Source of the DNA: a phage
Sequence record: OZ336094.1
Reading direction: 5' to 3' (one strand)
DNA length: 64,000 nt
Shown here: piece after piece, positions 17,904 through 34,890 of the stretch
Layout of the letters: each line of letters opens with the position of its first letter
Numbering within the stretch: the stretch's first letter is position 1
The notes under the pieces: model-generated
Database searches by the model: none
What the model was told of the DNA's origin: nothing
The model's input: only the letters and a program-made list of their open reading frames with translations
Program-made: the position numbers and the translations under genes

Positions 17904-18369
17904 TTTAACTACAATCAAGGTGTCTGATCTACCTGTAACAACATCTGTTTCAGACACAGATTATTTTGTAACAGATCAATCAGGCATCACTAAGAAAACA
18001 TCATTACGTGTTCTTCTTGCGGGTGCTGGTGTTACACGAAATCGTCTTTCTGCAAGGGGTACTGTCACAAATACCCTAGCTTTAGATATTAGCACGGCAG
18101 AGTATTTCTCTGCCACTTTATCTAGTCCAACTTGCAGTATTTCATTTAGTAATGTTCCAGTTACAACTAATATTGTTCAAAACTTTACGCTATCCCTACG
18201 TCAAGGCAGTGGAGCAAATAAAGTAACGTGGCCTCAATCTGTTAAATGGAGTTTTGGTCGCGCTCCTGTTTTGAGTTATAAACAGGGAGCTACAGATATT
18301 TTTGAATTTGTTAGTTATGATAATGGAGCTACCTGGATAGGTAGTTTAGTGATGGCAGGAGTGATTTAA
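17896..18369 (+). CDS. Hypothetical baseplate / tail protein
   Basis: Overlapping start/stop coupling with neighbours. Confidence 0.4.
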   Translation: MADLTTIKVSDLPVTTSVSDTDYFVTDQSGITKKTSLRVLLAGAGVTRNRLSARGTVTNTLALDISTAEYFSATLSSPTCSISFSNVPVTTNIVQNFTLSLRQGSGANKVTWPQSVKWSFGRAPVLSYKQGATDIFEFVSYDNGATWIGSLVMAGVI

Positions 18370-21245
18370 TGTCAAGAATTAAGCACAGAATTGACAATGT
18401 TTTTCAACTGATCGATGGACATATTCAGTTCTTAGATCGTAATACAGGTTTAACTGTAGATCCTACAGTGCAACACTATGTATTAAACCCACAAAACGTT
18501 CTAGCTAATAACAGACACTTTATAAACTGGACTGCTCAAGAAGGGCAACCAAACGGGGATGCTACAACAGAAGGTCAATCCGTGCTTATTCTTGGTTGCG
18601 CTTATGCATACCTAGCTTCCGGCGATACAAAGTATTTAGACTCTGCTAAAAAATATTGGCAAGCCTATATAGATTACTTCTTTGGTGGTCAACCTATCCC
18701 AGATCCGCCAGCAAAATATCGCCCTAACTGGATTATTAACGGTAAAGAACCACGTCTTGCACACTATCCTCTTACAGATGATGGCTACCCTACACACGGA
18801 GGTTTTAAGGGTAGCTTAATGACGTGGACTAACGGTAGAACAGTTATTCCTCATGGTGCTCCACATTGGGGAGAATACCTTGATAAAGCATGGTTTGCTT
18901 TTAATGGTAATCTAGGATGGAACTCTGTAAACGCTACAGTATATGCTGTTAATGCAGATGGTACAACAGATTGGTCTAAGAATGGAGATCAATGGGATGT
19001 TGATTGGATCATTGATCGTCTAGGACGTAAGGTTGATTGGGATGGAAATATCTTAGAAGAAGGTTTTCCAACATCTCAATACGGAACAGTTCAACTAAAA
19101 AATACTTCTGTAAACGGTACATATAAATTTAACTACGCGACTTGTAACCCTGTTGAACACGGTGGTTATTTAATGGAGCGTAACACTATGTGGCATAACA
19201 GACCAGTTAACGTTCCGGTAGAAATGGGCTTTCAGGATAATGCGTCAGATGCCGAAACTTGGTGGTGTGATGCTAATTATCTGATGTACCAAATTACAGG
19301 AGAAAGAAAATATTGGTTATGCTGGCAGTCTTCACTGTTAGTGTGTCAAGATTACTCAAACATTGATATGTTTGATAAATTCTTCCGTAAGTCTACATAT
19401 GCAACTATTCCGTTTACAGATGGCATCTCTTATGATTATTCGTATCCGTCTACAGCAATACCTAAATATTCAAGAGATACTTTAGGTTATATTGTTATTA
19501 GACAAGATGTTGCTGCTCAAACAACATTAGAACAGCAAGCCATTTGGTTTAAAGTTGATCAGAACTCTAAGTTACGAGTTCAGTTTCAAGGTGTAGATGA
19601 CGCAGGACATGGTATTCTTTTCCGTCCAGAATTGGAACTAAGTAAGACCAAAGATGAAAATAACACAGTAACTTACCGTTGTGGCTTACCACTGGGTACA
19701 GCTAGTATGACAAGCATGGATATTCCATTATCCAGCTTTATGAGAAGTACCCCTCCGAATGGTGGAACATATATTATCGCAGATCCGCGAATTATTGTTG
19801 ACTGGGGTGACAATACTGTGGTACAATTTAAGTATGTAACAGGTATTGCTGGAACTAATAATGACCAGATTGTTACTGCATCAATGGATACGGATGGTGG
19901 TGTCACTGTTGGTTTTTGGTTAACTCCTACATCAAAAGCTAATGTTAAGTCTATTACATACAGAACATATGAAGATGACTTTAACATGACTATCACGGAT
20001 GCTCAAGGTTGGAGATGGTGGGCTATGCTGCCTAAAACGCAAGGAGCATGGAGTACGAAGACTTTATCAGCTTCTGATTTTCAGTTAAGTGCTTACCAGC
20101 CTAATCATCCAGATACAGATCCTAAACCTTCAGCAATAAATCTTACTGCGGTAGATCAGGTAAATTTAGTTCTTGATACGGCTCCTGTCAATGGTTTAAC
20201 AGGAACAATAGATTTCTATTGTATTAACGATGTACCTGAAAGATATTCATCATCTTCTGGTGATGATTATACCATGTACTTCCGTATCACTGTACAGGCT
20301 TCAAGTCCTCATACTGCTAAGTTAGGTGATTGTACTATTATTGACTATAAGTTAAATAGTCTTAATTACACACCAGGAATAATTCCATTCTCTAATATCA
20401 GTGACCCAAACACTGCATTATACGATGGATGGCGTGGTATTCCATACCCAGGATACCAGTATCCTTCCTTATACTGTTTTGCAGGTAGGGATATTGATTG
20501 GACACGTTTAAACAACAGTATTAATTTCTTGTATGATGCTCAAATGTGGTTTTATAACACGTTTGATCCTGTGATGCCTGGGCCTATGGCACAAGCATAT
20601 GTGTGGGATCGTTGGGATGCAAGAAAATACGGTGAACCTAATACGTTTACAATGAAACACTGGAATGAAAAAGCGTGGGATGGTTATGAAGCTCGTGCAT
20701 TCTACTGTGCTTGTCATGCTGTATACGAACTTGTACAAAGAGGAGAAACACCTCCTGAAAAACTAGTAACTGTTTGTAAAAATTGGATCAACTACCTTAA
20801 ATGGTTCCAAGACAATAATGATGGAAGAACACCAACTATCTTTAATCCAGATGGTACAGTTCTTGCACCTATAGATGACTTTACTAGTCATATGTCTGCA
20901 CTGTTTATGGCGGGTTGTTCAATCATGGGCTTGGCAGGTTATGATTCACAAATTCCAAACATTGGTATTGTAGCAGACAGATGTTTTGATCTGATTCAGC
21001 AAAACTATATTGTGCTTTCCCCTAACCATCCGATGAATGGTTCCTGGAGTGTTGCACCACGCCCAGATTCAGATAACGGAATGTTCTTTGGTTTCCACGC
21101 TGGAGAACTATTACGTGGTTTTGGTTTATATGCCTTGTATCGTAAACTAAACCCTCAAAACGCTTTACCAATTTTGGATAATAGTAACATACCAACACTA
21201 ACTGTTCTAACTATGAATGATATTAGTGTTGATGTAACCAAATAA
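18369..21245 (+). CDS. Large tail-associated protein, possible carbohydrate-active receptor-binding protein
   Basis: 958 aa; Trp/Tyr-rich; N-terminal segment (ILGCAYAYLASGDTKYLDSAKKYWQAY) resembles (alpha/alpha)6-toroid glycosidase/epimerase motifs. Confidence 0.4.
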   Translation: MSRIKHRIDNVFQLIDGHIQFLDRNTGLTVDPTVQHYVLNPQNVLANNRHFINWTAQEGQPNGDATTEGQSVLILGCAYAYLASGDTKYLDSAKKYWQAYIDYFFGGQPIPDPPAKYRPNWIINGKEPRLAHYPLTDDGYPTHGGFKGSLMTWTNGRTVIPHGAPHWGEYLDKAWFAFNGNLGWNSVNATVYAVNADGTTDWSKNGDQWDVDWIIDRLGRKVDWDGNILEEGFPTSQYGTVQLKNTSVNGTYKFNYATCNPVEHGGYLMERNTMWHNRPVNVPVEMGFQDNASDAETWWCDANYLMYQITGERKYWLCWQSSLLVCQDYSNIDMFDKFFRKSTYATIPFTDGISYDYSYPSTAIPKYSRDTLGYIVIRQDVAAQTTLEQQAIWFKVDQNSKLRVQFQGVDDAGHGILFRPELELSKTKDENNTVTYRCGLPLGTASMTSMDIPLSSFMRSTPPNGGTYIIADPRIIVDWGDNTVVQFKYVTGIAGTNNDQIVTASMDTDGGVTVGFWLTPTSKANVKSITYRTYEDDFNMTITDAQGWRWWAMLPKTQGAWSTKTLSASDFQLSAYQPNHPDTDPKPSAINLTAVDQVNLVLDTAPVNGLTGTIDFYCINDVPERYSSSSGDDYTMYFRITVQASSPHTAKLGDCTIIDYKLNSLNYTPGIIPFSNISDPNTALYDGWRGIPYPGYQYPSLYCFAGRDIDWTRLNNSINFLYDAQMWFYNTFDPVMPGPMAQAYVWDRWDARKYGEPNTFTMKHWNEKAWDGYEARAFYCACHAVYELVQRGETPPEKLVTVCKNWINYLKWFQDNNDGRTPTIFNPDGTVLAPIDDFTSHMSALFMAGCSIMGLAGYDSQIPNIGIVADRCFDLIQQNYIVLSPNHPMNGSWSVAPRPDSDNGMFFGFHAGELLRGFGLYALYRKLNPQNALPILDNSNIPTLTVLTMNDISVDVTK

Positions 21246-21253: not shown

Positions 21254-23329
21254 ATGAAACAGGCTATTTTTACTGTAACTCGAAATACGAGAGTAAATGC
21301 CAGTTCATTCAGCTATAAGACCGTCGATGGAACGGCGGTCGCTGGTAGAGATTATGTAGCTAAACAGGGAACAGTAACGTTCCCTTCTGATGCAGATTCT
21401 GCTACTGTAGTGGTTGATGTATATGAACGTCCGGCAAACTCTTTAGATCTTTATTTTACTCTTGAGATTACTAGCATAAGTCAAAATAACATGATGATCA
21501 ACGAAGAAATTCGTTGTGTTATTACGACTGATCAATCGAATACAACCCCGCTAACTTGGCCTGTTGTGAAGTCTAGAATGTTTGATCCTAAGTTTTGGAC
21601 AATAGATTCTCAAGCAACAGAAAGTTGTTCTATTATCTCTAATGGTGATTCTTTCACAGCAAGAATGGTTAATAGGACAGTGGCTGGTCTTGCTGGGATT
21701 ATTTGGTCAACTTACGATAAATATGATCACAAAGGATTAGGCTACCAAGAACATTCTGACTTAAGTAAAGAGAAACTTTGGTTTAAAATGGAACTTAGTC
21801 AAGGTGTTCCTGGATTAAAAGAAGAAAAATTAATACCATCCTTAACAGTGACACTGAAGGATGAAACAGTTCATTATGTATCTCTAAACTTTTATGCAGA
21901 AGAAGTTTCAGAAGATGGTAAGACAGCAACAATCAAACTAGATTTCTCAAATTTAAAATCTGGGCCAGAAAATGATATTGTTGTTGACACTACACAGATA
22001 GATAATATGTTCTTCTCCTTGATCTCCACAAGGTATCAAGAAATTGAAGATATTATTCCTGTAGACAATGTGGATCTTTCCTTTAAGTTTACCATACTGG
22101 AGCCTGATACTGGTTACAGTATGATGAATATGGGTAATTTAAATGTTCCAGCACACACCATAAGAATGTGTACATCTTATGATGATATGTATAACCTGAC
22201 CCCAGAGCGAGTTATTTCTAACACCTACAGATTAGGTTATAGGGATATGATTAACCATTATAATGGTATGTCACACTATTATCAGTTTAGTTGGGATGCT
22301 GGTTCTAATAAATGGGTTTTGAATAGAACAGAATATTTAAACCCAGCAACAGAAGCATGGTTTGATAATTTCCACGCTAATGCAAAAGCTATGGGCTACA
22401 CAGTAATGAACTCCTTAAGTTTTGAACTTATGAGTACAGTGTGTCCTGTAGAATGGGTTCAACATACTTGGAATGATGATCTGGCTGCTACAGGTTATGA
22501 GCCACCAAGTTATGTTTTATCTCCTTCAATTGATGAAGGGATGAATTATTTACAAGGTGTAATAAATAAGATAGCTTCTATATCCGCTGCCAATGATCTT
22601 CCTGTTATTATTCAGGTTGGTGAACCGTGGTGGTGGTATAACACAGCTACCAATCTACCGTGTATTTATGATTATACAACCAAAGTTGCATTTAATAATG
22701 AAACTGGATTATATGCACAAGATGTTGGTACAGTTAAGAATTATAAAACTGGTACACCATATGATGAATATTATGCATTCCTATCTAAAACATTAGGACT
22801 GCGTGTTGCTAAATTTGCAACAGATACTAGATTAGCATATCCTGGGGCTAAAGTTACATTATTACCATTTGTGCCATCCATTTTAGGTAACGGTATGATG
22901 GAGTTTGTTAACTTCCCTAAAGATTATTATATCCCAGAAAACTTTGACTTTTATTGTTCAGAATGTTATGACTGGTTGTTGGAAGGTCAGATGGAAAGAT
23001 CTTTCGACGCTATTAAAATACCTAATGAGCAACTAGGTTTTAGTTATGATAAGATACATTATCTTGCAGGGTTTGTTCCAGATGCAACTCTAGCACCATT
23101 ATATGGCTTTGATCCTGAATCAGACTACAGAACATATTTGTGGAAAATGATTATAGGTAATATTGTATTGAATGACCAGAAGTTTGTTGGTTTGTATCAA
23201 TACATATGGGCTTATCCACAAATTATGGCAGATTCATTAACTGTTCTTAATTCAAAATCCCAAGTTTTTTATATGGGTAACGTACCTCTGAATGTCTTTT
23301 TACAAGATACAGTATATGTTTCTTCTTAA
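21254..23329 (+). CDS. Tail fibre / receptor-binding-like protein
   Basis: 691 aa; N-terminal Calx-beta-like segment (VAGRDYVAKQGTVTFPSDADSATVVV); Asn/Tyr/Trp-rich C-terminal region. Confidence 0.4.
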   Translation: MKQAIFTVTRNTRVNASSFSYKTVDGTAVAGRDYVAKQGTVTFPSDADSATVVVDVYERPANSLDLYFTLEITSISQNNMMINEEIRCVITTDQSNTTPLTWPVVKSRMFDPKFWTIDSQATESCSIISNGDSFTARMVNRTVAGLAGIIWSTYDKYDHKGLGYQEHSDLSKEKLWFKMELSQGVPGLKEEKLIPSLTVTLKDETVHYVSLNFYAEEVSEDGKTATIKLDFSNLKSGPENDIVVDTTQIDNMFFSLISTRYQEIEDIIPVDNVDLSFKFTILEPDTGYSMMNMGNLNVPAHTIRMCTSYDDMYNLTPERVISNTYRLGYRDMINHYNGMSHYYQFSWDAGSNKWVLNRTEYLNPATEAWFDNFHANAKAMGYTVMNSLSFELMSTVCPVEWVQHTWNDDLAATGYEPPSYVLSPSIDEGMNYLQGVINKIASISAANDLPVIIQVGEPWWWYNTATNLPCIYDYTTKVAFNNETGLYAQDVGTVKNYKTGTPYDEYYAFLSKTLGLRVAKFATDTRLAYPGAKVTLLPFVPSILGNGMMEFVNFPKDYYIPENFDFYCSECYDWLLEGQMERSFDAIKIPNEQLGFSYDKIHYLAGFVPDATLAPLYGFDPESDYRTYLWKMIIGNIVLNDQKFVGLYQYIWAYPQIMADSLTVLNSKSQVFYMGNVPLNVFLQDTVYVSS

Positions 23330-23340
23330 GGATCTCTAGT

Positions 23341-23586
23341 ATGAGAAAATTTTTAATAGGTATGTTTTGTACATATCCTGATAATAAAGTCAGTTCTACT
23401 AAAGTTTGGAATGCTATTGGTATGATTGTTATGTCCAGTATGTTTATTTATTTGGGAATTGATAAAGAAATTCCTGAATGGATGGGTTGGGCTTTTGTTT
23501 TTATGATCACACCATCCAGACTAATGAAGAATTTAATAGATTTACGTTGGGGCAGATCACCTGCCCCTGATAAGGAGGATAACTAA
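23341..23586 (+). CDS. Small membrane protein
   Basis: 81 aa with two hydrophobic helices (GMIVMSSMFIYLGI, WAFVFMI). Confidence 0.35.
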   Translation: MRKFLIGMFCTYPDNKVSSTKVWNAIGMIVMSSMFIYLGIDKEIPEWMGWAFVFMITPSRLMKNLIDLRWGRSPAPDKEDN

Positions 23587-25073
23587 TGGCAGATTATGGT
23601 TTAACAGATGCTGGTTTTGTCATTCCAACGTTTGATGATATTCTAAATAATTATATGACAGCATTGAAAAACACTTTCGGTGCAGATACAGCTACATCTG
23701 AAGATACTGTCTTTGGTCAACTGTTTCGTATTATTGCATATACAGATTACACCCTTTGGGAAGGTATGCAAGGTGTTTACAATACCCAAACCTTAGATGG
23801 TGCAGAAGGTATTTACCTTGATGAAATTTTCTCTAAAAGGGGTTTTTATCGTAAAGCTGCTTCTGCTGGTAGTGGTTATGCTTATGTTAAATCTAACAAT
23901 AAGGCAGCTTGGACTTATGAGCTAAGTACAGATGTTTATTTTAACGCCGATAACGATTTGACATATTATGTCAGTGCACCAACAATGTTGAATGCTAAGA
24001 TTGGAGCATATACCATTTCTAAAGCAAACGCAACAGCTTCTGGTGAAACTTCTATTACTTTCTACATTCAAAGTGCTATTGATGGTGGTCTTAACAGTAA
24101 AACACTAAGTCCTAGCAATACAAACTTTATTTTAGATCTCACGAATTTCATTAAAGCTAACGTATCAACAACAGATCGTGCTTTAGTATGGAATGATGCT
24201 AGTAATGTTTACATGGGTTATAATCCAGAAGATAATGTTAACCCAATAGGTCTAGTAACACCAGTGAAATTTTACGCATCTATTGCAATAGGTACAAAAT
24301 GGAGTGAAATTCCAGTTACGTGTTCAGACGTTGGTTATAATCCAGTAGGTACAGAAAGTATCACAGGTATTTCTTCAACGTTTACAGGCTTTTTAGATAC
24401 AGGTAACTTCTATCCATTCTCTCCAGGTACAGATGTTGAAACAGATGCAGAATTCCGTTCTCGTTTCAATGATAATATGGATGAAGCTAATGCTGCTACT
24501 CGTGCTGCTATTGTTAAAGCTCTGCTACTGACAGATGGTGTGACAAAGGTTAAGATTTATGATAACCCTACATTACATGATCAGGAACATGCTCCAGCTA
24601 TGACATTCCAGACTATTGTGTATGGTGGTACAGCAGAAGAAGTTGCACAGGTTATTTATAATACTAAGCCTATTAACACCCTAACCTATGGTACAACAGC
24701 AATTACTATCGTAACAGAAGATGGTGGTCAAGAAGTAATTCGTTTTTCTCCTGGTGACAATGCTGAATATTCACTTAAACTAGTATATCAAACTGGCAAT
24801 GGTAGTGTGTTAAGTACAACAGAAAGAGAAAATATTGTTTCTGCTCTTTCAAATCTACAGGCTTATTTTGAGTTAGGGTCAACAGTAACTAACGATCAGA
24901 TAAAAGGTGTAATTTATTCTGCACTTGCGTTCGGACGCTTGACTTCTCTCCGTGTTTATGTTAAACTTAATACTGAGGATGACAGTAAATATAATGAGGG
25001 AGATATCACTCCAGCGTACAATGTTGTACCATCCTTTGACCTTGATAATATTTCCTACGAGTACGGAGTCTAA
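23586..25073 (+). CDS. Baseplate J-like protein
   Basis: 495 aa; N-terminus (GLTDAGFVIPTFDDILNNY) typical of baseplate J-family proteins; followed by a gpI-sized ORF and fibre genes. Confidence 0.55.
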   Translation: MADYGLTDAGFVIPTFDDILNNYMTALKNTFGADTATSEDTVFGQLFRIIAYTDYTLWEGMQGVYNTQTLDGAEGIYLDEIFSKRGFYRKAASAGSGYAYVKSNNKAAWTYELSTDVYFNADNDLTYYVSAPTMLNAKIGAYTISKANATASGETSITFYIQSAIDGGLNSKTLSPSNTNFILDLTNFIKANVSTTDRALVWNDASNVYMGYNPEDNVNPIGLVTPVKFYASIAIGTKWSEIPVTCSDVGYNPVGTESITGISSTFTGFLDTGNFYPFSPGTDVETDAEFRSRFNDNMDEANAATRAAIVKALLLTDGVTKVKIYDNPTLHDQEHAPAMTFQTIVYGGTAEEVAQVIYNTKPINTLTYGTTAITIVTEDGGQEVIRFSPGDNAEYSLKLVYQTGNGSVLSTTERENIVSALSNLQAYFELGSTVTNDQIKGVIYSALAFGRLTSLRVYVKLNTEDDSKYNEGDITPAYNVVPSFDLDNISYEYGV

Positions 25074-27272: not shown

Positions 27273-27614
27273 ATGGAGCTAACAGAAGTATGGGATATCG
27301 CTAAAGAGGCGATTATCCCTCTTATTGGCGTAATCTGGGTGGTCTTCAAACAGAAGATAGATGATATGGCAAGTGATTTGGATAAAATGGAAGACAAATA
27401 CCGCGAACTAGAAAAGAAGTTGGTGTTTGTTGAATCCACTTATGCTACCAAAGCAGAACTTGCTCAAATGCTTAACCAGATCAACTCTACATTAATGGCA
27501 AATAATACTGCCTTAGAACAGAAGATTGAAAAAATAATGGATTTAAAAAATGCTCCTGTTCAATTAATGCTAGAGGAGATTACAAAGCGCACACAAAGTA
27601 AGGACAAAAATTAA
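27273..27614 (+). CDS. Hypothetical membrane-anchored coiled-coil protein
   Basis: 113 aa; N-terminal hydrophobic helix then coiled coil. Confidence 0.35.
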   Translation: MELTEVWDIAKEAIIPLIGVIWVVFKQKIDDMASDLDKMEDKYRELEKKLVFVESTYATKAELAQMLNQINSTLMANNTALEQKIEKIMDLKNAPVQLMLEEITKRTQSKDKN

Positions 27615-30028
27615 TGGCGAATTTTCCAACATATCCTGCTACGACACTAGAACAAGGTGTTGATCTGGTTATATTCTCGTCTAACCAGATGCATGATGTT
27701 ATTAATGGAGATGCTACAGCAACTGTAGAAACCGAAACAGGTTTAATACCTACACTGCGTAAAGCACTTGTTGATAACTTCTTCTTTAAGAGTCCTGTTG
27801 CTTGGTCAGCAGGATCAACTGAAACTGTATTTAACCAGTTACGTTATTTTGAAAACGGTATCTTGAGTGGGTACTATTATGCCCCATCTGCCACTACTGC
27901 TAACCCTGTACCTATGCAGGGTACACCTGTAGGAGACAGTAACTGGACTCTGTACGCTCTTAAAACTGAACAGTTAGCTTCAGATGTGTATCCTTGGTAT
28001 TTTAAAGGTGCTACAGGATATGAAACAGAAATCAGTCCTCCTTATATCTTTGATAATGCTATTGTCACCATTAACGGTGTAATTCAGATTCAAGGTGAAG
28101 CATTTACTATCAAAGATAGTAAAATTATTCTGGCAGAACCATTAGGTTTAGATCCGTCTACTGGTCTACCTAACAAATTGTTTGCTTTTATTGGTAAAAC
28201 AACAGCCTCTACTTCCTACGTAGAGAAAAACCTTTTGTCATCTACCACTGGTGCAGCAATGATTGGTCTTCCATCTGGAGGCAACCTGTTACAAGCTCAA
28301 TACTTTGTAACGCCTGAGCAGTTTGGTGCAATTGGTGATGGAGTTACCGATGATACTCAAGCAATTTTAAAAACTATTACTTTCGCTAACACGAATAACA
28401 TTCAAGTACGTGCAGATAAGAATTATAGATTCACAAGCTCAATTGCTATGTCTGGTATTCGTTGGTATGGTGGTACATTCACTGGTAACGGTGGAACAAT
28501 GATTTCTACTGTGTCCTGTTGGATGGAAAACGTTCGCTTTGAAAAATGTTATGTTAAGATGTTAGGTGGTGATTGCCGATTCTATCGTAATATCTTCTCC
28601 AACGCAACATCTACAGCAGCATTCTTAATGCAAGCAATGACAAGTGAAGGTACGTTGGACTTCAGTTACAACGAAATGTATGGTTGTAAATATGCGATCC
28701 TGCAACAAGGTACTGGAGAAGTAATGACCTACGGGCGTTACTCTAACAACTATATTCACGATATTAAAGGTGATGCTATTGAACTTAACGTAGTTCAAAA
28801 ACACTACACTGAAGGTTTGATTATCGAGAATAACCACATTGCTAACGTAGATGCTTCTGGACAAGGGGCAAACTGGGGTATTGGTATTGGTGTAGCAGGT
28901 AGTGGCCCATATGGTGTTGATGTTCCTGATTCACAATATGTACGTAATTTCAGTATCGTTGGGAATAGGGTTTACAATTGCCGTCAATGTCTACACGTTG
29001 AAATGGGTAAAAACTTCACGATACGTGATAATGAAGTTTATCCTAACACAGCAGTTTCAACAGGTACAGGTTTAACTACTTGTGGTGTTGCATTATACGG
29101 ATGCCAAGATTTTGAAGTTGATGGTTTAACTGGTTATCTGCTTAATGATCCGTCTGTTTCAACACGCATGGTCTTTATTGACTGGGGTGTTAACAGTGGA
29201 AGATATGCGGGGCCACCAATTAACTTTACAATTAAGAATTTGGATATTCCAGAATCTTCAATTGAGATTGCAACATCTGGATCAGATGACTGGGAAAACT
29301 CTACAATTGTTAGTAATATCAATTGTAATGTTTTTAAATGGCGTGGGCTACCATCTAGCTCTACCTTTAATAATATTCGTTGCCGTAGTATTGACTTTAT
29401 TGGTCAACACGGAAGCGGAGAAGGAAGTGGTGGCGGTTTCTATACTCGCAGCCAATTCACGTATATGAAGTGGGTAGGATGTACAGCACTTAGCGGAGAT
29501 GAAACAACAGTTTCTTTTGCTAAAATCTACACTGATCGTTGCGATCAGGTTGGAAATAACTTTGGTGTTCCAACTGCTGTTGATGGTACAGGTCATCGTG
29601 GGCCAGTTTTAACTACTATTTCTGAACAATATTTTACAACTTATGATGAATTCCCAGGTGGGCGTGAATTCCCTACTGGAACAGTTATTCATTGTGCAAG
29701 CGGTAAAAAACATGTTGTTACAGTAGGTGGTGCTTTCTTTAGTGCCAACGAGAAAATAAAAGCAACTGTTACAGGTCAAACCTATCTACAGTCTAATGCT
29801 TTAAACTGGGCTAGTAATGGCTACGCTAAAGCAGCAGGTACTAAGATTGTTATTCCAGGTGCAGGTGCAAATGGCGGCGATCTTGTGACAACTATAGCAC
29901 GTGCTACATATGTGACAAATAGTTTGTACACAATAGATATTGCAGATCCAATTGTAACACCTACAGCAGAGAATACACAAATTAAAGCTCTGAACCCTGT
30001 TACTTTTGTTACTGTCAATAATGCTTAA
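27614..30028 (+). CDS. Tailspike-like protein with probable right-handed beta-helix (pectate-lyase-like)
   Basis: 804 aa; repeated Asn/Gly-rich beta-strand motifs and an FGAIGDGVTDDTQAI segment typical of pectin-lyase-fold depolymerases. Confidence 0.5.
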   Translation: MANFPTYPATTLEQGVDLVIFSSNQMHDVINGDATATVETETGLIPTLRKALVDNFFFKSPVAWSAGSTETVFNQLRYFENGILSGYYYAPSATTANPVPMQGTPVGDSNWTLYALKTEQLASDVYPWYFKGATGYETEISPPYIFDNAIVTINGVIQIQGEAFTIKDSKIILAEPLGLDPSTGLPNKLFAFIGKTTASTSYVEKNLLSSTTGAAMIGLPSGGNLLQAQYFVTPEQFGAIGDGVTDDTQAILKTITFANTNNIQVRADKNYRFTSSIAMSGIRWYGGTFTGNGGTMISTVSCWMENVRFEKCYVKMLGGDCRFYRNIFSNATSTAAFLMQAMTSEGTLDFSYNEMYGCKYAILQQGTGEVMTYGRYSNNYIHDIKGDAIELNVVQKHYTEGLIIENNHIANVDASGQGANWGIGIGVAGSGPYGVDVPDSQYVRNFSIVGNRVYNCRQCLHVEMGKNFTIRDNEVYPNTAVSTGTGLTTCGVALYGCQDFEVDGLTGYLLNDPSVSTRMVFIDWGVNSGRYAGPPINFTIKNLDIPESSIEIATSGSDDWENSTIVSNINCNVFKWRGLPSSSTFNNIRCRSIDFIGQHGSGEGSGGGFYTRSQFTYMKWVGCTALSGDETTVSFAKIYTDRCDQVGNNFGVPTAVDGTGHRGPVLTTISEQYFTTYDEFPGGREFPTGTVIHCASGKKHVVTVGGAFFSANEKIKATVTGQTYLQSNALNWASNGYAKAAGTKIVIPGAGANGGDLVTTIARATYVTNSLYTIDIADPIVTPTAENTQIKALNPVTFVTVNNA

Positions 30029-30034: not shown

Positions 30035-30054
30035 AGGGGCGAAAGCCCCTTTAT
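30035..30054 (+). terminator. Rho-independent terminator
   Basis: aggggc-gaaa-gcccct hairpin (GNRA loop) followed by a T-rich tract. Confidence 0.55.
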
Positions 30055-30069: not shown

Positions 30070-32031
30070 GTGATTTTAACACGTCCAAATAGTGCCATTG
30101 CAGACATGGTAGAGTCTCGCTATAGAAAGCGTAGAAGTTTTGCAAGTGGTTTTACCTTAAGAGATGCTCGTGAAGCATTGCTCTTTGAAACTGACGGTAA
30201 CTACTATCAGTGGAAAGGTTCTCTACCTAAAGTTGTACCTGCTAACTCTACTCCTACATCTACTGGAGGGATTTCAGATACAGCTTGGAAAAATGTGGGT
30301 AATGCAGATGACATTGCTCAAATAGAATCAGAATTAGATGCTATTGAAGCTGAAATTGAAGATCTTAGAGAATCCATTCCAGAAGCTGGTAAATCAGCTT
30401 ACCAGATTGCCGTAGACAATGGTTTCCAAGGTACTGAGACAGAGTGGTTGGCTTCTTTAAAAGGTGATCCAGGTGCTCCATTAAAGCTGCTAGGGACGCT
30501 ATCTAATACCAACCAATTACCTACAACTGGAAACAATGCAGGAGATGCATGGATTGTAGGCGAGAATATGTATGCTTGGGATGGTACTGCTTGGAGAAAA
30601 GTAAACTCACAGGGGCCAGAAGGTAAATCGGCTTATCAAGTTTGGCTTGCAGCAGGAAACCAAGGTACAGAACTAGATTATCTTGCTTCAATTAAAGGTG
30701 ATAAAGGGGAGCCTGGCCCAGAGGGGCCACAAGGTGTACCAGGTAACAATGCTAATGGTTTTGATTACCAAGGTGCAGCTAATTCCGTTTCAGATCTTCC
30801 TTCTGCATCTCCTGGAAACACATCTCAAGCATGGAATATTGGTACATATCTATACGTGTCAAACGGTGTAGAATGGATCAATATGGGCGCTATAGTGGGG
30901 CCAAAAGGAGATAAAGGCGACAAAGGAGATAAGGGTAACACTGGTGATTCAGCTTATCAAGTCTGGTTAAACGCTGGTAACGTTGGTACTATTGACGAAT
31001 ATATTGCCTCTCTGAAAGGAGAAAAAGGTGATAAGGGAGATAAGGGTGATCAAGGTGAGCAGGGTATACAAGGCTTGACGGGGCCAACTGGTGCAGGGTT
31101 GACCATTATTGATATTCTGACTGACACTTCTGAACTACCACAAACTGGAGAAGATGGTGATGGTTATCTGATCAATAATGAACTTTGGGTTTGGTTGCAA
31201 GGAGCCACACAGTGGACAAATGTTGGTCGTTTAGCTGGTACTCCAATCACTGCAAAAGGACACGTTGCGTCTGCAAGTGCACTTCCTCCTACATCCAATT
31301 ACGGTGATGCTTATTTGACGGAAGATACAGGTCATCTTTACATTTACACCTATGATGAACAAACTCAAACTGCTGAATATGTAGATATGGGTAGTTTGAA
31401 AGGTGATAAGGGTGAGAAAGGTGACGCTGGTACTAACGGTACAGACGGTGCTACTTGGATTGTTAAAACAACAGATCCAATCTCTAGTGATGGTAAACAA
31501 GGTGATTATGCCTTTAATATCTCCACTGGCGAGGTGTTCTTAAAAACATCTGCAACTGTCTGGACTTCTCAAGGTACACTACCTAGCATCACAGATGCAC
31601 CTAGTGACGGTAAGATCTATGCTCGTAAAGATGGAGCATGGGAAGAACTCACTAGTTCTGTAGATGGTCAAGATATAGTTCCAACAAAAGTAACAACTAA
31701 TTTTATAGAGGTTACAGCATATACCAACAACTCTGTTACAGGCGACTGGACACCTCCAGGAACACATAACATGAATGTGTTGAATCTTACTGGTAACTCT
31801 ACTATAAAAGCATGGCCTGGTGTCGAAGATAGCACAAAACCTAAACCATTCTCTGCAATAGTTTATCTTATCCAAGATGCCACTGGGGGTCGTACTGTTA
31901 CTTTAGATCCATCTTACAAAGTAATTGGTTCTAGTGATATTAATACAGATCCTAACGGAGTAACAATACTACAACTAACATATTGTGGTGTTGGCGATTA
32001 CGTGGATGCTATTGTTGCTAAACGCACATAA
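30070..32031 (+). CDS. Tail fibre with collagen-like G-X-Y tracts
   Basis: 653 aa; GDKGEPGPEGPQGVPG, GPKGDKGDKGDKGNTGD, GEKGDKGDKGDQGEQGIQGLTGPTGAG, GDKGEKGDAGTNGTDGA. Confidence 0.6.
   Translation: MILTRPNSAIADMVESRYRKRRSFASGFTLRDAREALLFETDGNYYQWKGSLPKVVPANSTPTSTGGISDTAWKNVGNADDIAQIESELDAIEAEIEDLRESIPEAGKSAYQIAVDNGFQGTETEWLASLKGDPGAPLKLLGTLSNTNQLPTTGNNAGDAWIVGENMYAWDGTAWRKVNSQGPEGKSAYQVWLAAGNQGTELDYLASIKGDKGEPGPEGPQGVPGNNANGFDYQGAANSVSDLPSASPGNTSQAWNIGTYLYVSNGVEWINMGAIVGPKGDKGDKGDKGNTGDSAYQVWLNAGNVGTIDEYIASLKGEKGDKGDKGDQGEQGIQGLTGPTGAGLTIIDILTDTSELPQTGEDGDGYLINNELWVWLQGATQWTNVGRLAGTPITAKGHVASASALPPTSNYGDAYLTEDTGHLYIYTYDEQTQTAEYVDMGSLKGDKGEKGDAGTNGTDGATWIVKTTDPISSDGKQGDYAFNISTGEVFLKTSATVWTSQGTLPSITDAPSDGKIYARKDGAWEELTSSVDGQDIVPTKVTTNFIEVTAYTNNSVTGDWTPPGTHNMNVLNLTGNSTIKAWPGVEDSTKPKPFSAIVYLIQDATGGRTVTLDPSYKVIGSSDINTDPNGVTILQLTYCGVGDYVDAIVAKRT
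30391..31446 (+). repeat. Collagen-like G-X-Y triplet tracts plus three copies of a ~30-aa SAYQ...LASLKG motif
   Basis: Seen in the translation: GKSAYQIAVDNGFQGTETEWLASLKG / GKSAYQVWLAAGNQGTELDYLASIKG / GDSAYQVWLNAGNVGTIDEYIASLKG, each followed by a G-X-Y tract. Confidence 0.7.
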
Positions 32032-32034: not shown

Positions 32035-32058
32035 AAGCCCCTTCGGGGGCTTATTATT
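32035..32058 (+). terminator. Rho-independent terminator
   Basis: aagcccc-ttcg-ggggctt hairpin (UUCG loop) then a T-rich tract. Confidence 0.55.
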
Positions 32059-32070
32059 TAAGGAGATTAA

Positions 32071-34890
32071 ATGTATCCTATTCCTTTATTTATGTCAACA
32101 ACATCAGCTTCAGTAGTAACAGCTACATCTATAACTACTTCCTCTATTGGTATTGCAATAGTTGGTGGTAAAAAACAACTGACATACACAGTTACACCCG
32201 AAGATGGTGCGTTATTTGATATAGCTTTTTCATCTTCAGATAATACCAAAATGGTTATAGATAATAGTGGTATGATGGAGTTTGTTGCCGAAGGTGGTTT
32301 TGATGCAATAATGACAGCTAAAAATAATTTAGGTGCTGTCTTAACTGATCAATCTGGTGGTTATGCTTCAGAATTAAGTGTGTACACTGAAAGTCTATTG
32401 GCTATGGATGTAGGCACTACTCAACAGTTGGTTGCTACAATCAGTCCAGAAGGTGCTAAAGACCTTCCAGATATGGTAATTACATACACCACAACAGATC
32501 CAGAAGTAGCTACTGTAAGCCCTACAGGATTAATAACTGCTCTTAAAGATGGCAATTGCCGTATAGGTTGTACTGCAACGTATCAAGGAACAGTTGTGGC
32601 CTCTGATAGTTCTTATTTAGGTGTTAATGCTATTCCTGTTATTTCTAATGTAACAGCCGTGGCAAACAGCTATGGAGACGTTCGTGTTGCTTGGGATGTA
32701 GCTGATCCGCTAGACGGTGATACTTATACTGTAGAAGTATTAGATTTAAGTAATAACAGTGTCCAGTGGACTACAACAACCACGAATACTTACGCCTACT
32801 TTGATATCTCTGACTCTATTCCTCTTTATGGGTTTGCTCCAACATACCTTAAAATTAGCGTTAAGAGCACCAAAGCAGCAGCCGTTATCTTTAATAACTC
32901 AATAGCTACAGATGATTCATTCATTAAAGAAGTTATTGTCTTTGCTGGACAAGATAACGTAAATGCACACTTTACAGAACTATCTGGTGCAAATAAAGCA
33001 GCAATGAGTAGCACAACAGCCCGTAATGCATATGCTACGCAACGTGGTTTAGCAAATGCTGAAGTTCTTCCGTTAAATACAGCTTCTGGATCATCAGCAG
33101 CAGATAAATATGCTGACGATAAAGCTGGAACAGGTACACCAGACAACTACTGGTATGATCTGGATAACACAGCAGATGGGCCATGCTTAACTAACTTTAT
33201 CACTAAAGTAACACCTTATGCAAGTAAGGTTAAAGCAATTATTTGGGGACAAGGTGAAAATGATGCTGTATCAGCATCTTCAACTGTTGCAGGTAGGTAC
33301 AGTAACACTACACGTTACCATGATGCTACGATAGCTATCTTTGATAAGATGCGTACAATAGTTCCTGCTTCTCAAGCAAAAATTGTTTGGCAGATCCTAG
33401 GACGTTCTTATTTATATGGTGTAGAAGTTAATGGTGTGGATTGGCAGAAGTACAGAAATGTACAAAGAACCATCTCTACAGCACGTGATGATGTTATCAT
33501 TGGTTCTTGGGTAGATGGTGCTGAACGTTACAGTGGTTATGTTTATGAAGAAGGTATTGATGGTCGTATCCATTATGTTTCTTCTGTATACCAAACAGCA
33601 GCTACAAAACTTGCTAAATCAGCAGCAGACGGTACAGACTTAACATCAACGTCACCTGTTTGGGTTGATATGGCTGTTCCAACTGGAGCAACAGCTACTT
33701 CCCAACCTAATCAAGATACAATTTTAGCATGGGATGCTCAAGGCTATAGTAAACACTACTTCCGTAATATTAACGTCTTAACCGCATCTGTATTAACTGA
33801 ACAAACGCTTAATACGAACAGTTATACGTTTACCTATGCAGATCAAGTAGAACAATATGGTTTTGCAGCAGGAACTACTATATTTGATGTTGCATATTAT
33901 GACGAAGCAAATGATGTGTTATCTCCTTTAGTACGTTTTAATGTTAACGTTACAGCAGGAACCGTAGAAGATAAACCTGTCGTGATGGACTATGATTTGA
34001 CGCAAGAAACTCTTCCATCAGATGTTAAGGTTAATGGTGGGAACTCTTTTGCTCGTGCTTCTGGAGATATACTTGTAGCCACTAACACCTTGGTTGCTCC
34101 GTTGGAGTATGTTGGTAATACCCCTGTAGGTAGACGTGTAACAGCTAACACAGCTTCACAAATTTTTGTCAACAACGCCTTAACAAGTGCAAGCCCGTGG
34201 GTAAAGACCAACTTAACTGTTGCAGCTTCATCTGATAAATCTCCGGCTGGAACTACTGCCAATGTATTCAAATTAACTCCGACTACAACCTCTGGTAGTC
34301 ATATCTTAACTGCAACATATACTAACGCGTACAACATATCTGCCGGACGTAACTGGTCTGCCTCTGTTTTCTTGAAAGCAAACGGGATTACTAAGGCCAA
34401 ACTAAGATTAAAAGCAGGAACTGAAGTTAATGAGGGTACTTTTGATTTAGCAGCAGGTACATTCACAGGAAGTGAAGCTAATATTATATCTATGGGCAAC
34501 GGTTGGTATCGTGCTATTCTGCATAAAACAGGGATAGCCAAACAGTCCTTCATAAGTTTTGAAATAATTGCCTTGGATGCAACTGGTGCGGAGATTTTCT
34601 CTGGAGATGGTACTAGTAACCTTGCAGTTTGGTTGCCACAGCTTGAAGGTGCTTCTACAGGAGAAACATCAAAAGCTGGATCGCCTTATGTCTGCACATA
34701 TCCTGGAAATTTAGGAGGAGTATCCTTCACTATACCAAGGAACGGACATACTGGTGTGGATGTTTACTATTCCAACGGAGACGTTGTTCGTGACGTATTC
34801 TCTGGTACGGCATCTACTTGGACAATAAACTACTCCAGCTTGTACGATTGGGGATCAGTCTTTATTACAGGTTTGAAATATTACGACTAA
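32071..34890 (+). CDS. Large tail fibre / receptor-binding protein with Ig-like repeats
   Basis: 939 aa; N-terminal Ig-like (BIG2-type) segments; a GQxN-containing segment (VIVFAGQDNVNAHF) reminiscent of carbohydrate esterases but without Ser at the nucleophile position; last gene of the plus-strand block. Confidence 0.5.
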   Translation: MYPIPLFMSTTSASVVTATSITTSSIGIAIVGGKKQLTYTVTPEDGALFDIAFSSSDNTKMVIDNSGMMEFVAEGGFDAIMTAKNNLGAVLTDQSGGYASELSVYTESLLAMDVGTTQQLVATISPEGAKDLPDMVITYTTTDPEVATVSPTGLITALKDGNCRIGCTATYQGTVVASDSSYLGVNAIPVISNVTAVANSYGDVRVAWDVADPLDGDTYTVEVLDLSNNSVQWTTTTTNTYAYFDISDSIPLYGFAPTYLKISVKSTKAAAVIFNNSIATDDSFIKEVIVFAGQDNVNAHFTELSGANKAAMSSTTARNAYATQRGLANAEVLPLNTASGSSAADKYADDKAGTGTPDNYWYDLDNTADGPCLTNFITKVTPYASKVKAIIWGQGENDAVSASSTVAGRYSNTTRYHDATIAIFDKMRTIVPASQAKIVWQILGRSYLYGVEVNGVDWQKYRNVQRTISTARDDVIIGSWVDGAERYSGYVYEEGIDGRIHYVSSVYQTAATKLAKSAADGTDLTSTSPVWVDMAVPTGATATSQPNQDTILAWDAQGYSKHYFRNINVLTASVLTEQTLNTNSYTFTYADQVEQYGFAAGTTIFDVAYYDEANDVLSPLVRFNVNVTAGTVEDKPVVMDYDLTQETLPSDVKVNGGNSFARASGDILVATNTLVAPLEYVGNTPVGRRVTANTASQIFVNNALTSASPWVKTNLTVAASSDKSPAGTTANVFKLTPTTTSGSHILTATYTNAYNISAGRNWSASVFLKANGITKAKLRLKAGTEVNEGTFDLAAGTFTGSEANIISMGNGWYRAILHKTGIAKQSFISFEIIALDATGAEIFSGDGTSNLAVWLPQLEGASTGETSKAGSPYVCTYPGNLGGVSFTIPRNGHTGVDVYYSNGDVVRDVFSGTASTWTINYSSLYDWGSVFITGLKYYD

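What the first reader, a model, noticed from the sequence alone, without database searches (positions are those of the whole stretch)
18369..34890. Unusually large adsorption apparatus with at least six fibre, tailspike or depolymerase-like proteins
After the baseplate core the phage encodes a 958-aa carbohydrate-enzyme-like protein, a 691-aa Calx-beta-containing protein, a 327-aa fibre with chaperone, an 804-aa beta-helix tailspike, a 653-aa collagen-like fibre and a 939-aa Ig-like-repeat fibre. Three of these are separated by their own terminators. This suggests a multivalent host-range apparatus that recognises several surface polysaccharides.
Basis: inference. Interest (0 to 1): 0.45.

Follow-up and report, generated by a model that had tools for sequence, protein, structure and literature searches.

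The report
Known phi92-type multi-fibre host-recognition gene cluster
This stretch is the already published tail-fibre and tailspike gene cluster of Escherichia phage Paula, a phi92-like phage whose "Swiss army knife" set of sugar-binding and sugar-cutting tail proteins is a described explanation for its broad host range, so the finding is correct but ordinary.

Summary
All six ORFs exist with exactly the stated sizes, and the stated domains are real. GC-rich hairpins follow the last three genes. The region is 100% identical to Escherichia phage Paula (LR865361, Justusliebigvirus). Each gene is the orthologue (97-100% aa) of phi92 gp140-gp151, the published "multivalent adsorption apparatus".

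Per protein:
- 691 aa: Calx-beta plus phage N4 sheath gp65/gp64-like domains, the glycan-deacetylase-like module linked in the literature to the NGR glycan.
- 327 aa plus chaperone: phi92 gp147, assigned to fibre III by cryo-EM.
- 804 aa: the phi92 gp150 colanidase (crystal 6E0V).
- 653 aa: a docking domain plus a collagen-like fibre.
- 939 aa: Ig-like domains, an N4 gp65-like SGNH-fold domain and a GTA-spike-like tip.

Corrections:
- The wedge genes gp145/gp146 lie inside the region, not before it.
- Paula lacks the phi92 endosialidase cassette.
- phi92 cryo-EM shows three fibre types, so the six proteins probably build composite fibres rather than six separate ones.
- The size is normal for this lineage.

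Novelty: already known. Interest is low.

The parts
17896..18369 (+). 157-aa small fibre-like structural protein (phi92 gp140 orthologue)
   Evidence: PHROG 9017 'tail fiber protein', E 1.3e-69. 100% aa identity to phi92 gp140. Listed among fibre-like candidates in the phi92 cryo-EM paper.
18369..21245 (+). 958-aa tail protein with an (alpha/alpha)6 glycoside-hydrolase-like barrel interrupted by large beta-sandwich inserts (phi92 gp141 orthologue)
21254..23329 (+). 691-aa protein: Calx-beta + NCTSP_N + NCTSP TIM barrel (phi92 gp142 orthologue; N4 sheath gp65/gp64-like glycan-deacetylase-type module)
   Evidence: Pfam PF03160, PF23844 and PF23845, all above cutoff. PDB sequence matches to N4 Gp64 (7e-28) and N4 sheath gp65 (4e-12). 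The literature links this module to NGR-glycan dependence. It lacks the last ~34 residues (identity ends at residue 685 of 691, against 719) seen in relatives that carry the gp143 cassette.
23341..23586 (+). 81-aa hydrophobic small protein (phi92 gp144 orthologue)
   Evidence: PHROG 1322 'membrane protein'. Translation. Annotated as a conserved phage structural protein in the Paula record.
23586..25073 (+). 495-aa baseplate wedge protein (Baseplate_J-like; phi92 gp145 orthologue)
   Evidence: Pfam PF04865 and PHROG 6. 100% identical to phi92 gp145, which is modelled in the phi92 wedge and carries fibres I and III.
25076..25705 (+). 209-aa baseplate wedge protein (DUF2612; phi92 gp146 orthologue)
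   Evidence: Pfam PF11041 and PHROG 4056. 100% identical to phi92 gp146, a wedge subunit in the cryo-EM model.
25719..26702 (+). 327-aa short tail fibre (phi92 gp147 orthologue, fibre III)
   Evidence: PHROG 4465 tail fibre, 2e-108. 98.5% identical to phi92 gp147, which cryo-EM identifies as fibre III. The N-terminus (residues 2-72) is homologous to the phiTE short tail fibre joint that binds wedge 1.
26712..27263 (+). 183-aa tail fibre assembly chaperone (phi92 gp148 orthologue)
   Evidence: Pfam Caudo_TAP PF02413 and PHROG 136.
27273..27614 (+). 113-aa protein with an N-terminal hydrophobic segment and a coiled-coil-like remainder (phi92 gp149 orthologue)
   Evidence: PHROG 15210 is labelled 'lipoprotein', but the translation has no cysteine at all, so it cannot be a lipoprotein.
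27614..30028 (+). 804-aa beta-helix tailspike, colanidase (phi92 gp150 orthologue)
   Evidence: Residues 180-804 match PDB 6E0V phi92 gp150 (1425 bits). 99.3% identical to phi92 gp150. WcaM-like region, 1.5e-28. PHROG 6117 colanic acid degradation. The N-terminus (residues 12-126) is homologous to the phiTE long tail fibre anchor that binds wedge 2A and the sheath initiator.
30035..30052 (+). GC-rich hairpin after the tailspike gene (weak or leaky terminator)
   Evidence: Sequence. MFE -14.5 kcal/mol, z -3.1. The Paula record annotates a terminator here on the opposite strand.
30070..32031 (+). 653-aa fibre: TSP1/Gp66-type N-terminal docking domain, three repeated fibre motifs with collagen G-X-Y runs, and a C-terminal tip (phi92 gp151 orthologue)
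   Evidence: Pfam Tail_spike_N 3.6e-21, Collagen 7.3e-8 and a weak Fibritin_C hit. The N-terminal domain matches CBA120 and G7C-type tailspike docking domains in the PDB. Translation. GTG start codon.
32035..32052 (+). GC-rich UUCG-loop hairpin after the collagen-like fibre gene
   Evidence: MFE -13.1 kcal/mol, z -2.2.
32071..34890 (+). 939-aa protein: Ig-like/Big_2 domains (about 20-280), SGNH/SASA-fold domain (about 285-530), FN3-like domain (about 540-626) and a GTA-head-spike-fibre-like C-terminal domain (about 700-863)
34894..34917 (+). Strong intrinsic terminator ending the + strand structural operon; transcription direction switches here
   Evidence: 10-bp stem followed by TTTTCTTTT. 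MFE -15.4 kcal/mol, z -4.1. The GC-skew sign changes at about 34-36 kb. Terminators are annotated here in the Paula record.

Best explanation
The region is the baseplate-periphery and receptor-binding module of a phi92-like myovirus. The window is Escherichia phage Paula, genus Justusliebigvirus.

Gene content. One late operon encodes two wedge proteins (gp145- and gp146-like), a fibre chaperone, two small proteins and seven host-surface-directed proteins.

Assembly (inferred by homology with the phi92 virion). These proteins assemble on the six wedges as a few composite or branched fibres, not as six independent appendages.
- The 327-aa Mu gpS-type fibre binds the lower face of the wedge. It makes the final contact with the LPS core that triggers contraction.
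- The 804-aa tailspike is anchored by a phiTE-LTF-like N-terminus near the sheath initiator. It binds and cuts colanic acid.
- The 691-aa and 939-aa proteins carry phage N4 sheath (gp64/gp65)-type carbohydrate-esterase or deacetylase-like domains. They engage the NGR exopolysaccharide, which lets these phages bypass O-antigen.
- The 958-aa protein is a conserved wedge-attached (alpha/alpha)6 glycosidase-like enzyme.
- The 653-aa collagen-like fibre docks through a CBA120/G7C-type N-terminal domain.

Shown here or in the literature: gene identity, domain and fold assignments, the colanidase structure of the 99%-identical orthologue, fibre III = gp147, and NGR (wecB/nfrB) dependence of phi92-like phages.

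Inferred: which protein targets which glycan, the composite architecture, and enzymatic activity of the 958, 691 and 939-aa proteins.
For: - Identity: 100% nucleotide identity over all 16,522 bases to phage Paula. 52 records cover at least 80% of the query, and all 25 listed best hits are Justusliebigvirus phages at 96-100% identity. The Paula record maps each gene to phi92 gp140-gp151.
- Orthology: per-protein identity to phi92 is 97.9-100%, except 81% for the chaperone.
- Domains: Pfam and PHROG assignments.
- PDB sequence matches: phi92 gp150 6E0V, N4 Gp64 and gp65, phiTE short and long tail fibre anchors, CBA120/G7C docking domains.
- Folds: (alpha/alpha)6 GH-like for the 958-aa protein; N4 gp65-like and SGNH-like for the 939-aa protein.
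- Further family hits: WcaM-like and GTA-spike-like.
- Fusion proteins elsewhere link gp141-like to NCTSP domains and to Tail_P2_I, and link the gp142-like architecture to the middle of the 939-aa protein.
- Modularity: N-terminal anchors are conserved and distal domains swapped between genera and within the genus.
- Literature: Swiss-army-knife model and conserved deacetylase-type fibre; NGR dependence; phi92 baseplate and fibres; the N4 gp64/gp65 sheath as receptor-binding protein; attachment sites of the phiTE fibres.
Against: - phi92 cryo-EM resolves only three fibre types. It could assign only gp147 firmly and gp143 tentatively. Predicted gp150, gp151 and gp140 did not fit the fibre II density, and gp141 and gp142 were not placed at all.
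- The 958-aa protein has no sequence-level match to any CAZy-type family. It is far more conserved than typical receptor-binding proteins, so a mainly structural role is possible.
- The SGNH-like domain of the 939-aa protein has Asp where its N4-like homologues have the block-I Ser, so it may be catalytically dead.
- Paula lacks the phi92 endosialidase gp143, the enzyme of this locus whose activity the sources I read describe biochemically.
- I found no experimental data for Paula itself.
Confidence: 0.9

Rival explanations
1. Several of the large proteins, above all the 958-aa gp141-like protein and possibly the 691- and 939-aa proteins, are mainly structural scaffolds or adaptors of the baseplate periphery. 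They would form the proximal 'arms' that carry the true receptor-binding tips. Their enzyme-like folds would be relics used for binding or architecture, not for catalysis.
For: - The 958-aa protein keeps about 45% identity and constant length across very distant hosts, unlike variable receptor-binding proteins.
- It is fused to the wedge protein Tail_P2_I in some phages.
- It has no sequence match to any glycoside hydrolase family.
- The 939-aa SGNH-like domain has Asp in place of the block-I Ser, and SASA scores below the Pfam cutoff.
- phi92 fibre I is described as an L-shaped arm with the enzyme at its tip.
Against: - Invariant acidic residues lie at inner-helix N-termini of the barrel (E68, D294/E296, D750, E913) together with many invariant Trp, Tyr and Arg. 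That pattern suggests a preserved active site.
- The same module serves as the receptor-binding sheath in N4.
- NGR dependence correlates with the shared deacetylase-type protein.
Confidence: 0.3
2. Some of the proteins (653 aa, 157 aa, perhaps 939 aa) are head, neck or whisker fibres rather than baseplate fibres. The baseplate apparatus would then be smaller than the gene count suggests.
For: - The phi92 cryo-EM paper reports that gp140 and gp151 resemble the head spike gp52 of phage Pa223.
- The 939-aa C-terminal domain matches the 'phage head spike fiber' family NF048003.
- Big_2 Ig-like domains are common in capsid decoration and major tail proteins (PHROG hits).
- The three genes are set apart by hairpins at the end of the operon.
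Against: - All of them lie inside the tail/baseplate module, downstream of the hub, spike and wedge genes.
- The 653-aa N-terminus is a tailspike docking domain found in baseplate- or tail-attached tailspikes of CBA120 and G7C.
- The best structural homologue of the 939-aa protein is the N4 tail sheath gp65.
Confidence: 0.12
3. The locus encodes six independent appendage types, each present as its own six-fold set on the baseplate. This is the literal reading of the finding's title.
For: - There are six or seven distinct non-paralogous fibre-like genes.
- At least two different anchor types are homologous to fibres that bind the wedge directly in phiTE.
Against: - Cryo-EM of phi92 shows three fibre types per wedge, with fibre II attached to the base of fibre I.
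- The docking-domain architecture of the 653-aa protein and the fusion proteins that join gp141-, gp142- and 939-like parts point to composite or branched fibres.
Confidence: 0.1

Closest known systems
Escherichia phage phi92 multivalent adsorption apparatus (gp140-gp153; Schwarzer et al. 2012, J Virol 86:10384, cited; cryo-EM in PMC13450770)
   Same: - The gene order is the same and the proteins are 97.9-100% identical for gp140, gp141, gp142 (to residue 685), gp144-gp147 and gp149-gp151.
- It has the same colanidase tailspike (PDB 6E0V).
- It has the same wedge proteins and the same fibre III protein.
   Different: - Paula has no gp143 endosialidase cassette and lacks the last ~34 residues of gp142.
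- Paula has an intact 939-aa gene where phi92 has the fragments gp152 and gp153 and no C-terminal domain.
- The chaperone allele is only 81% identical.
Other Justusliebigvirus phages (PaulScherrer/Bas60, KMB37, alia, inny, BME3, Eryne) and Phapecoctavirus phAPEC8
   Same: The locus is syntenic at 97-99% nucleotide identity within the genus. The 939-aa protein is shared with PaulScherrer, KMB37, alia, inny and others. The locus is described in the literature as a multivalent, NGR-targeting apparatus.
   Different: - Many relatives carry an extra, variable tailspike gene at the gp143 position.
- phAPEC8 keeps the anchors but has a different catalytic part of the colanidase (33% identity) and a different middle part of the 939-aa protein.
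Phage N4 non-contractile tail sheath gp64/gp65 (PDB 9LC0, 9YF4), the N4 receptor-binding protein
   Same: - The 691-aa protein contains NCTSP_N and the NCTSP TIM barrel, homologous to parts of gp65 and to gp64.
- The 939-aa protein contains the gp65-type SGNH-like and FN3-like repeats.
- Both phage groups depend on the NGR glycan pathway.
   Different: - Here the domains are split over two proteins on the baseplate of a contractile tail, instead of forming a sheath around a short tail.
- The block-I Ser of the SGNH-like domain is Asp in this lineage.
- There is no evidence for NfrA binding or plug gating.
Branched tailspike complexes of Ackermannviridae (CBA120 TSP1-4) and G7C gp63.1/gp66
   Same: Several different glycan-specific receptor-binding proteins are present on one virion. 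The 653-aa protein carries the same N-terminal Tail_spike_N docking domain.
   Different: No T4 gp10-like branching domains were detected by Pfam in any protein here. The distal parts are a collagen-like fibre, an (alpha/alpha)6 barrel and N4-type domains rather than four beta-helix tailspikes.
Flagellotropic myophage phiTE baseplate fibres (PDB 9CUY)
   Same: The N-terminal anchors of the 327-aa fibre and the 804-aa tailspike are homologous to the phiTE short and long tail fibre anchors. Those bind wedge 1, and wedge 2A plus the sheath initiator, respectively.
   Different: The distal receptor-binding parts are unrelated.

Membership tests
phi92-type (Justusliebigvirus) receptor-binding locus | Synteny and orthology of gp140-gp151 between the baseplate hub/spike genes and the oppositely transcribed replication module | tested here: met
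   100% nucleotide identity to phage Paula. The gene-by-gene phi92 mapping is in the Paula record. tblastn identities to phi92 are 97.9-100%, with the chaperone at 81%.
phi92-type (Justusliebigvirus) receptor-binding locus | Endosialidase tailspike gp143 (K1/K92 capsule depolymerase) | tested here: not met
   There is no gene between the gp142 and gp144 homologues. About 30 nt replace the ~2.3-kb cassette found in PaulScherrer, and phi92 carries its 2.76-kb gp143 gene at this position. The cassette is variable within the genus, so its absence does not exclude membership.
phi92-type (Justusliebigvirus) receptor-binding locus | Three co-expressed fibre types on each baseplate wedge | not testable with these tools
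   This is known only from cryo-EM of phi92.
Beta-helix tailspike depolymerase (phi92 gp150 colanidase) | Sequence identity to the solved colanidase and a conserved N-terminal virion anchor | tested here: met
   6E0V matches residues 180-804 at 1425 bits. 99.3% identity to phi92 gp150. WcaM-like region. TSP_Ig-like C-terminal domain. Activity itself was not tested.
Glycoside hydrolase with (alpha/alpha)6 barrel (GH8, GH76, GH105, GH88-like), for the 958-aa protein | (alpha/alpha)6 barrel fold | tested here: met
Glycoside hydrolase with (alpha/alpha)6 barrel (GH8, GH76, GH105, GH88-like), for the 958-aa protein | Sequence membership in a curated GH family | tested here: not met
   No Pfam or NCBIfam hit, even at E up to 10 or with a barrel-only construct. 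The profile against the PDB gives only a GH76 chain at E 0.052.
Glycoside hydrolase with (alpha/alpha)6 barrel (GH8, GH76, GH105, GH88-like), for the 958-aa protein | Catalytic acid/base residues in the barrel centre, and activity | tested here: inconclusive
   Invariant E68, D294, E296, D750 and E913 lie at or near helix N-termini. No residue-level superposition was possible, and activity cannot be tested here.
N4-type non-contractile tail sheath proteins (NCTSP; gp64/gp65), for the 691-aa protein | NCTSP_N and NCTSP TIM-barrel domains above the Pfam gathering score | tested here: met
   PF23844 at 75.6 bits and PF23845 at 275.5 bits, both with cutoff 27. PDB matches to N4 Gp64 (7e-28) and gp65 (4e-12).
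N4-type non-contractile tail sheath proteins (NCTSP; gp64/gp65), for the 691-aa protein | Forms a sheath around a short non-contractile tail and gates the tail plug | not testable with these tools
   This phage has a contractile sheath protein (DUF3383/PHROG 205). The module therefore most likely sits on the baseplate (inference).
SGNH / SASA (CE6-like) carbohydrate esterases, for the middle domain of the 939-aa protein | SGNH alpha/beta fold | tested here: met
SGNH / SASA (CE6-like) carbohydrate esterases, for the middle domain of the 939-aa protein | Pfam SASA score above the gathering threshold | tested here: not met
   PF03629 scores 16.1 bits against a cutoff of 24.8.
SGNH / SASA (CE6-like) carbohydrate esterases, for the middle domain of the 939-aa protein | Block I nucleophile Ser (GDS / GQSN) | tested here: not met
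   Paula has VFAGQDN. The N4-like homologues have FAGQSN or FAGQSH, and N4 gp65 has FAGESQ at the aligned position. The assignment of this Ser as the nucleophile rests on general knowledge of SGNH hydrolases, not on a superposition.
Collagen-like phage fibre, for the 653-aa protein | Runs of G-X-Y triplets flanked by trimerising fibre motifs | tested here: met
   Pfam Collagen at 32.5 bits, cutoff 27.2. Four G-X-Y runs of 5-9 triplets are visible in the translation. Scl/Lcl-like hits are far below their family cutoffs.
Tail fibre plus Caudo_TAP chaperone pair (Mu gpS/gpU, lambda/P2 type) | A fibre gene immediately followed by a Caudo_TAP gene | tested here: met
   The 327-aa fibre matches PHROG 4465. 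The 183-aa protein matches PF02413 at 38.9 bits, cutoff 22.1. The homology to Mu GpS/GpU is stated.
Rho-independent terminators | GC-rich hairpin followed directly by a U-tract | tested here: inconclusive
   All three hairpins are stable. Only 34894-34917 has a clean T-run. The other two have TTTATAAAA and ATTATTT tails. The simple scan found the second and third but not the first.

The most novel reading that the evidence does not exclude
The 958-, 691- and 939-aa proteins are not three separate receptor-binding proteins. They would be parts of one composite, wedge-anchored fibre that processes a single N-acetylated exopolysaccharide (the NGR glycan or a related polymer). In this reading:
- the 958-aa protein is a new sequence family of (alpha/alpha)6 glycanase;
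- the 691-aa protein is an N4 gp64-type deacetylase-like TIM barrel;
- the 939-aa protein carries an SGNH-fold domain whose nucleophile Ser has become Asp, and so acts as a lectin.

The module would be mobile between SU10/N4-like podoviruses and rV5/phi92-like myoviruses. It would correspond to the unassigned proximal arm of phi92 fibre I or to fibre II.
Probability: 0.25. Interest if true: 0.45.

Novelty: already known. Interest (0 to 1): 0.13.

Why it matters
Multivalent receptor-binding sets explain why phi92-like phages lyse unusually many E. coli and Salmonella strains, and they are templates for host-range engineering. That is already established for this lineage, and this exact sequence is a deposited, annotated genome, so the finding adds nothing new at the level at which it was stated.

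The open question is which protein builds which fibre and which glycan each one targets. The phi92 cryo-EM study could not place gp141, gp142, gp150 or gp151. The fold assignments, anchor homologies and fusion proteins collected here give testable guesses for that question.

Tried and rejected
- All-against-all BLASTP of the 12 module proteins, to test whether the fibres are paralogues or share anchors: no cross-hits at E <= 0.01.
- Sequence-family assignment of the 958-aa protein: nothing significant from Pfam, NCBIfam, PDB phmmer, a 47-sequence profile against the PDB, or a barrel-only construct against Pfam at E <= 10. Only the fold search worked.
- From memory, the 'TEGQS' and 'ASDAE' segments resemble GH8 signature blocks. 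I could not verify this with any tool, so I do not claim GH8 membership.
- The PHROG and RefSeq label 'lipoprotein' for the 113-aa protein is rejected, because the protein has no cysteine.
- The promoter scan shows no enrichment over shuffles (70 found against 60.9 +/- 7.9), so I make no promoter claims.
- The original phi92 paper (PMC3457257) is not held in the library. Its content is cited only through papers that quote it.
- A first mixed alignment for the 939-aa protein (A2, 2367 columns) was too mosaic and was replaced by A3.
- The AF2 model of the 939-aa protein is poor for residues 630-713 and only moderate in the C-terminal domain. I draw no fold conclusion there beyond the NCBIfam hit.

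Full report

Yes. The + strand carries tightly packed ORFs of 958, 691, 81, 495, 209, 327, 183, 113, 804, 653 and 939 aa between 18369 and 34890. Gaps between genes are at most 13 nt up to the 804-aa gene. Only the last three genes are followed by 38-41-nt spacers, and each spacer holds a GC-rich hairpin directly after the stop codon:
- 30035-30052, -14.5 kcal/mol
- 32035-32052, -13.1 kcal/mol
- 34894-34917, -15.4 kcal/mol

The z-scores against dinucleotide shuffles are -3.1, -2.2 and -4.1. Only the last hairpin has a clean T-run. The other two look like leaky terminators or stabilising hairpins. At about 34.9 kb the GC skew changes sign and the genes switch to the - strand.

**2. What is it?**

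Megablast shows that the 16.5-kb region is 100% identical to Escherichia phage Paula (LR865361; Stephanstirmvirinae, Justusliebigvirus). The 25 best-ranked records are all Justusliebigvirus phages at 96-100% identity. The Paula record already maps every gene to phi92 gp140-gp151. Its labels include 'potential tail fiber protein with glycosidase activity or carbohydrate binding module' (twice), 'potential T4 baseplate gp6 ortholog', 'potential tail fiber chaperon' and 'colanidase tailspike'. My tblastn comparison gives 97.9-100% aa identity to phi92 for all proteins except the chaperone, which is 81% identical.

Upstream lie the sheath, tube, tape measure, Dit-like tube initiator, plug, hub, central spike and sheath-initiator genes. 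Two wedge proteins sit inside the region, not before it: the 495-aa Baseplate_J-like protein (phi92 gp145) and the 209-aa DUF2612 protein (phi92 gp146).

**3. Protein by protein**

*958 aa (gp141-like).*
- It has no Pfam, NCBIfam or PDB sequence match.
- It has full-length homologues at about 45% identity in phages and prophages of Pseudomonas, Stenotrophomonas, Gluconobacter, marine bacteria and Enterobacter. Many Trp, Tyr, Arg, His, Asp and Glu residues are invariant.
- An AF2 model built from 47 sequences is confident (pLDDT 86.6, pTM 0.81).
- The barrel is split by large beta-sandwich inserts.
- Sequence-level membership of any GH family could not be shown.
- 'Carbohydrate-enzyme-like' is therefore supported at the fold level only.

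*691 aa (gp142-like).*
- Pfam finds Calx-beta, NCTSP_N and the NCTSP TIM barrel, all above cutoff.
- PDB sequence matches are to N4 Gp64 and to the N4 sheath protein gp65.
- N4 gp64/gp65 form the receptor-binding sheath.
- The BASEL study and Sellner et al. note that N4, the Vequintavirinae and the phi92-like phages share a homologous glycan-deacetylase-type fibre. They also show that all of them depend on wecB/nfrB, that is, on the NGR glycan.

*327 aa plus 183 aa.*
- This is a Mu gpS/gpU-type short fibre with a Caudo_TAP chaperone.
- The phi92 orthologue gp147 was identified as fibre III, attached to the bottom of gp145.
- Its first 72 residues match the phiTE short-fibre joint that binds wedge 1.

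*804 aa.*
- Residues 180-804 match the phi92 gp150 crystal structure 6E0V.
- A WcaM-like segment fits a colanic-acid specificity.

*653 aa.*
- It has an N-terminal TSP1/Gp66-type docking domain shared with CBA120 and G7C-type tailspikes.
- It then has three repeats of a fibre motif interleaved with four G-X-Y runs, followed by a C-terminal tip.

*939 aa.*
- It has Big_2/Ig-like domains.
- It has a middle domain whose best structural and profile match is N4 gp65.
- At the block-I position the Justusliebigvirus proteins read GQDN. N4-like homologues read GQSN or GQSH, and N4 gp65 reads GESQ. The canonical nucleophile Ser is therefore replaced by Asp, which suggests a binding rather than a catalytic role (inference).

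The six proteins are not paralogues.

**4. Comparison with relatives**

- Many Justusliebigvirus genomes (PaulScherrer, KMB37, phi92) carry an extra, variable tailspike gene at the gp143 position. In phi92 this is the endosialidase. Paula and several others lack it. In Paula about 30 nt replace the cassette, and gp142 is identical only to residue 685, so about 34 residues of the relatives' C-terminus are missing.
- Conversely, phi92 has only frameshifted fragments (gp152, gp153) of the 939-aa gene and no C-terminal domain. The BME3 paper has already noted this difference.
- The C-terminal third of the 939-aa protein is exchanged among relatives, while residues 1-628 stay about 95% identical.
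- Against phAPEC8, anchors are conserved and distal parts diverge. For example, gp150 is 75% identical at the N-terminus and 33% in the catalytic part.
- This is the usual modular pattern of receptor-binding proteins.

**5. Fusion proteins elsewhere**

- P0099 (1557 aa) joins a gp141-like protein to NCTSP_N and the NCTSP TIM barrel. It is encoded next to the head-tail adaptor of an SU10-like podovirus contig.
- P0086 carries an N-terminal Tail_P2_I wedge domain followed by a gp141-like protein.
- P0157 has the full gp142 architecture followed by the SGNH-like and FN3 part of the 939-aa protein. P0156 adds a Mu Gp48 wedge domain.
- These fusions suggest that the 958-, 691- and 939-aa proteins act together and sit directly on the wedge (inference).

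**6. Mechanism**

The best-supported reading is the published one. A set of co-expressed glycan-binding and glycan-cutting proteins on the baseplate lets the virion bind and traverse different exopolysaccharides: colanic acid, NGR, and capsules where a suitable cassette is present. The short fibre then reaches the LPS core, and wedge rearrangement triggers contraction.

phi92 cryo-EM sees three fibre types. It could not place gp141, gp142, gp150 or gp151. The six proteins therefore most likely form composite fibres rather than six separate appendages.

**7. Novelty and score**

The sequence is a deposited, annotated phage genome. The interpretation repeats a concept published in 2012 and elaborated in 2021-2026. 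The finding is correct and ordinary.

Small residual points of interest are the unclassified (alpha/alpha)6 family, the Ser-to-Asp change in the SGNH-like domain, and the anchor homologies that could help assign the phi92 fibres.

Noticed in passing
window 32071-34890 (residues about 285-530 of the 939-aa protein): The SGNH/SASA-fold domain has 'VFAGQDN' at the block-I position. N4-like homologues have 'FAGQSN' or 'FAGQSH', and N4 gp65 has 'FAGESQ'. The expected nucleophile Ser is Asp in the Justusliebigvirus proteins and in the closest ~645-aa homologues (GGDN), so this may be an inactivated esterase used as a lectin.
   Followed up: partly
window 23300-23345, compared with L003 6400-8790: Paula lacks the variable gp143-position tailspike cassette (the endosialidase in phi92) and the last ~34 residues of gp142 that accompany it in relatives. 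About 30 nt replace roughly 2.3 kb. The co-occurrence hints that the gp142 C-terminus may be the docking site for the cassette-encoded tailspike.
   Followed up: partly
L004 13321-14983 (phi92 gp152/gp153) compared with window 32071-34890: In the type phage phi92 the 939-aa gene is broken into frameshifted pieces (residues 1-198, 273-335 and 335-628) and lacks the C-terminal domain. It is intact in Paula, PaulScherrer and KMB37.
   Followed up: yes
window 27273-27614: The 113-aa gp149-like protein is labelled 'lipoprotein' in PHROGs and in the phi92 RefSeq record, but it contains no cysteine. It has an N-terminal hydrophobic segment and a coiled-coil-like remainder, with weak Rz-like spanin PHROG hits. 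Its role between the fibre chaperone and the tailspike gene is unknown.
   Followed up: partly
window 26712-27263: The fibre chaperone is mosaic. It is 99% identical to PaulScherrer but only 81% identical to phi92 and KMB37, although the adjacent fibre gene is 98-99% identical in all three.
   Followed up: no
L007 6691-11364 (Logan SRR10874396 contig): A 1557-aa fusion of a gp141-like (alpha/alpha)6 protein with N4-type NCTSP domains sits right after an SU10-type adaptor gene in a podovirus-like contig. The module is therefore shared between podoviruses and myoviruses.
   Followed up: partly
window 18369-21245: The gp141-like protein family is unusually conserved for a tail-periphery protein: about 45% identity over about 940 aa across phages of very different Proteobacteria, and 55% in Enterobacter/E. 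coli assemblies. It has no Pfam family.
   Followed up: partly
window 16527-17264: The central spike protein matches two Pfam families whose names are printed as 'xxxxx_N' and 'xxxxx_C'. The same masking appears in the text of the Paula record and of the phi92 paper. This looks like a masking artefact of the tools, not a feature of the sequence.
   Followed up: no
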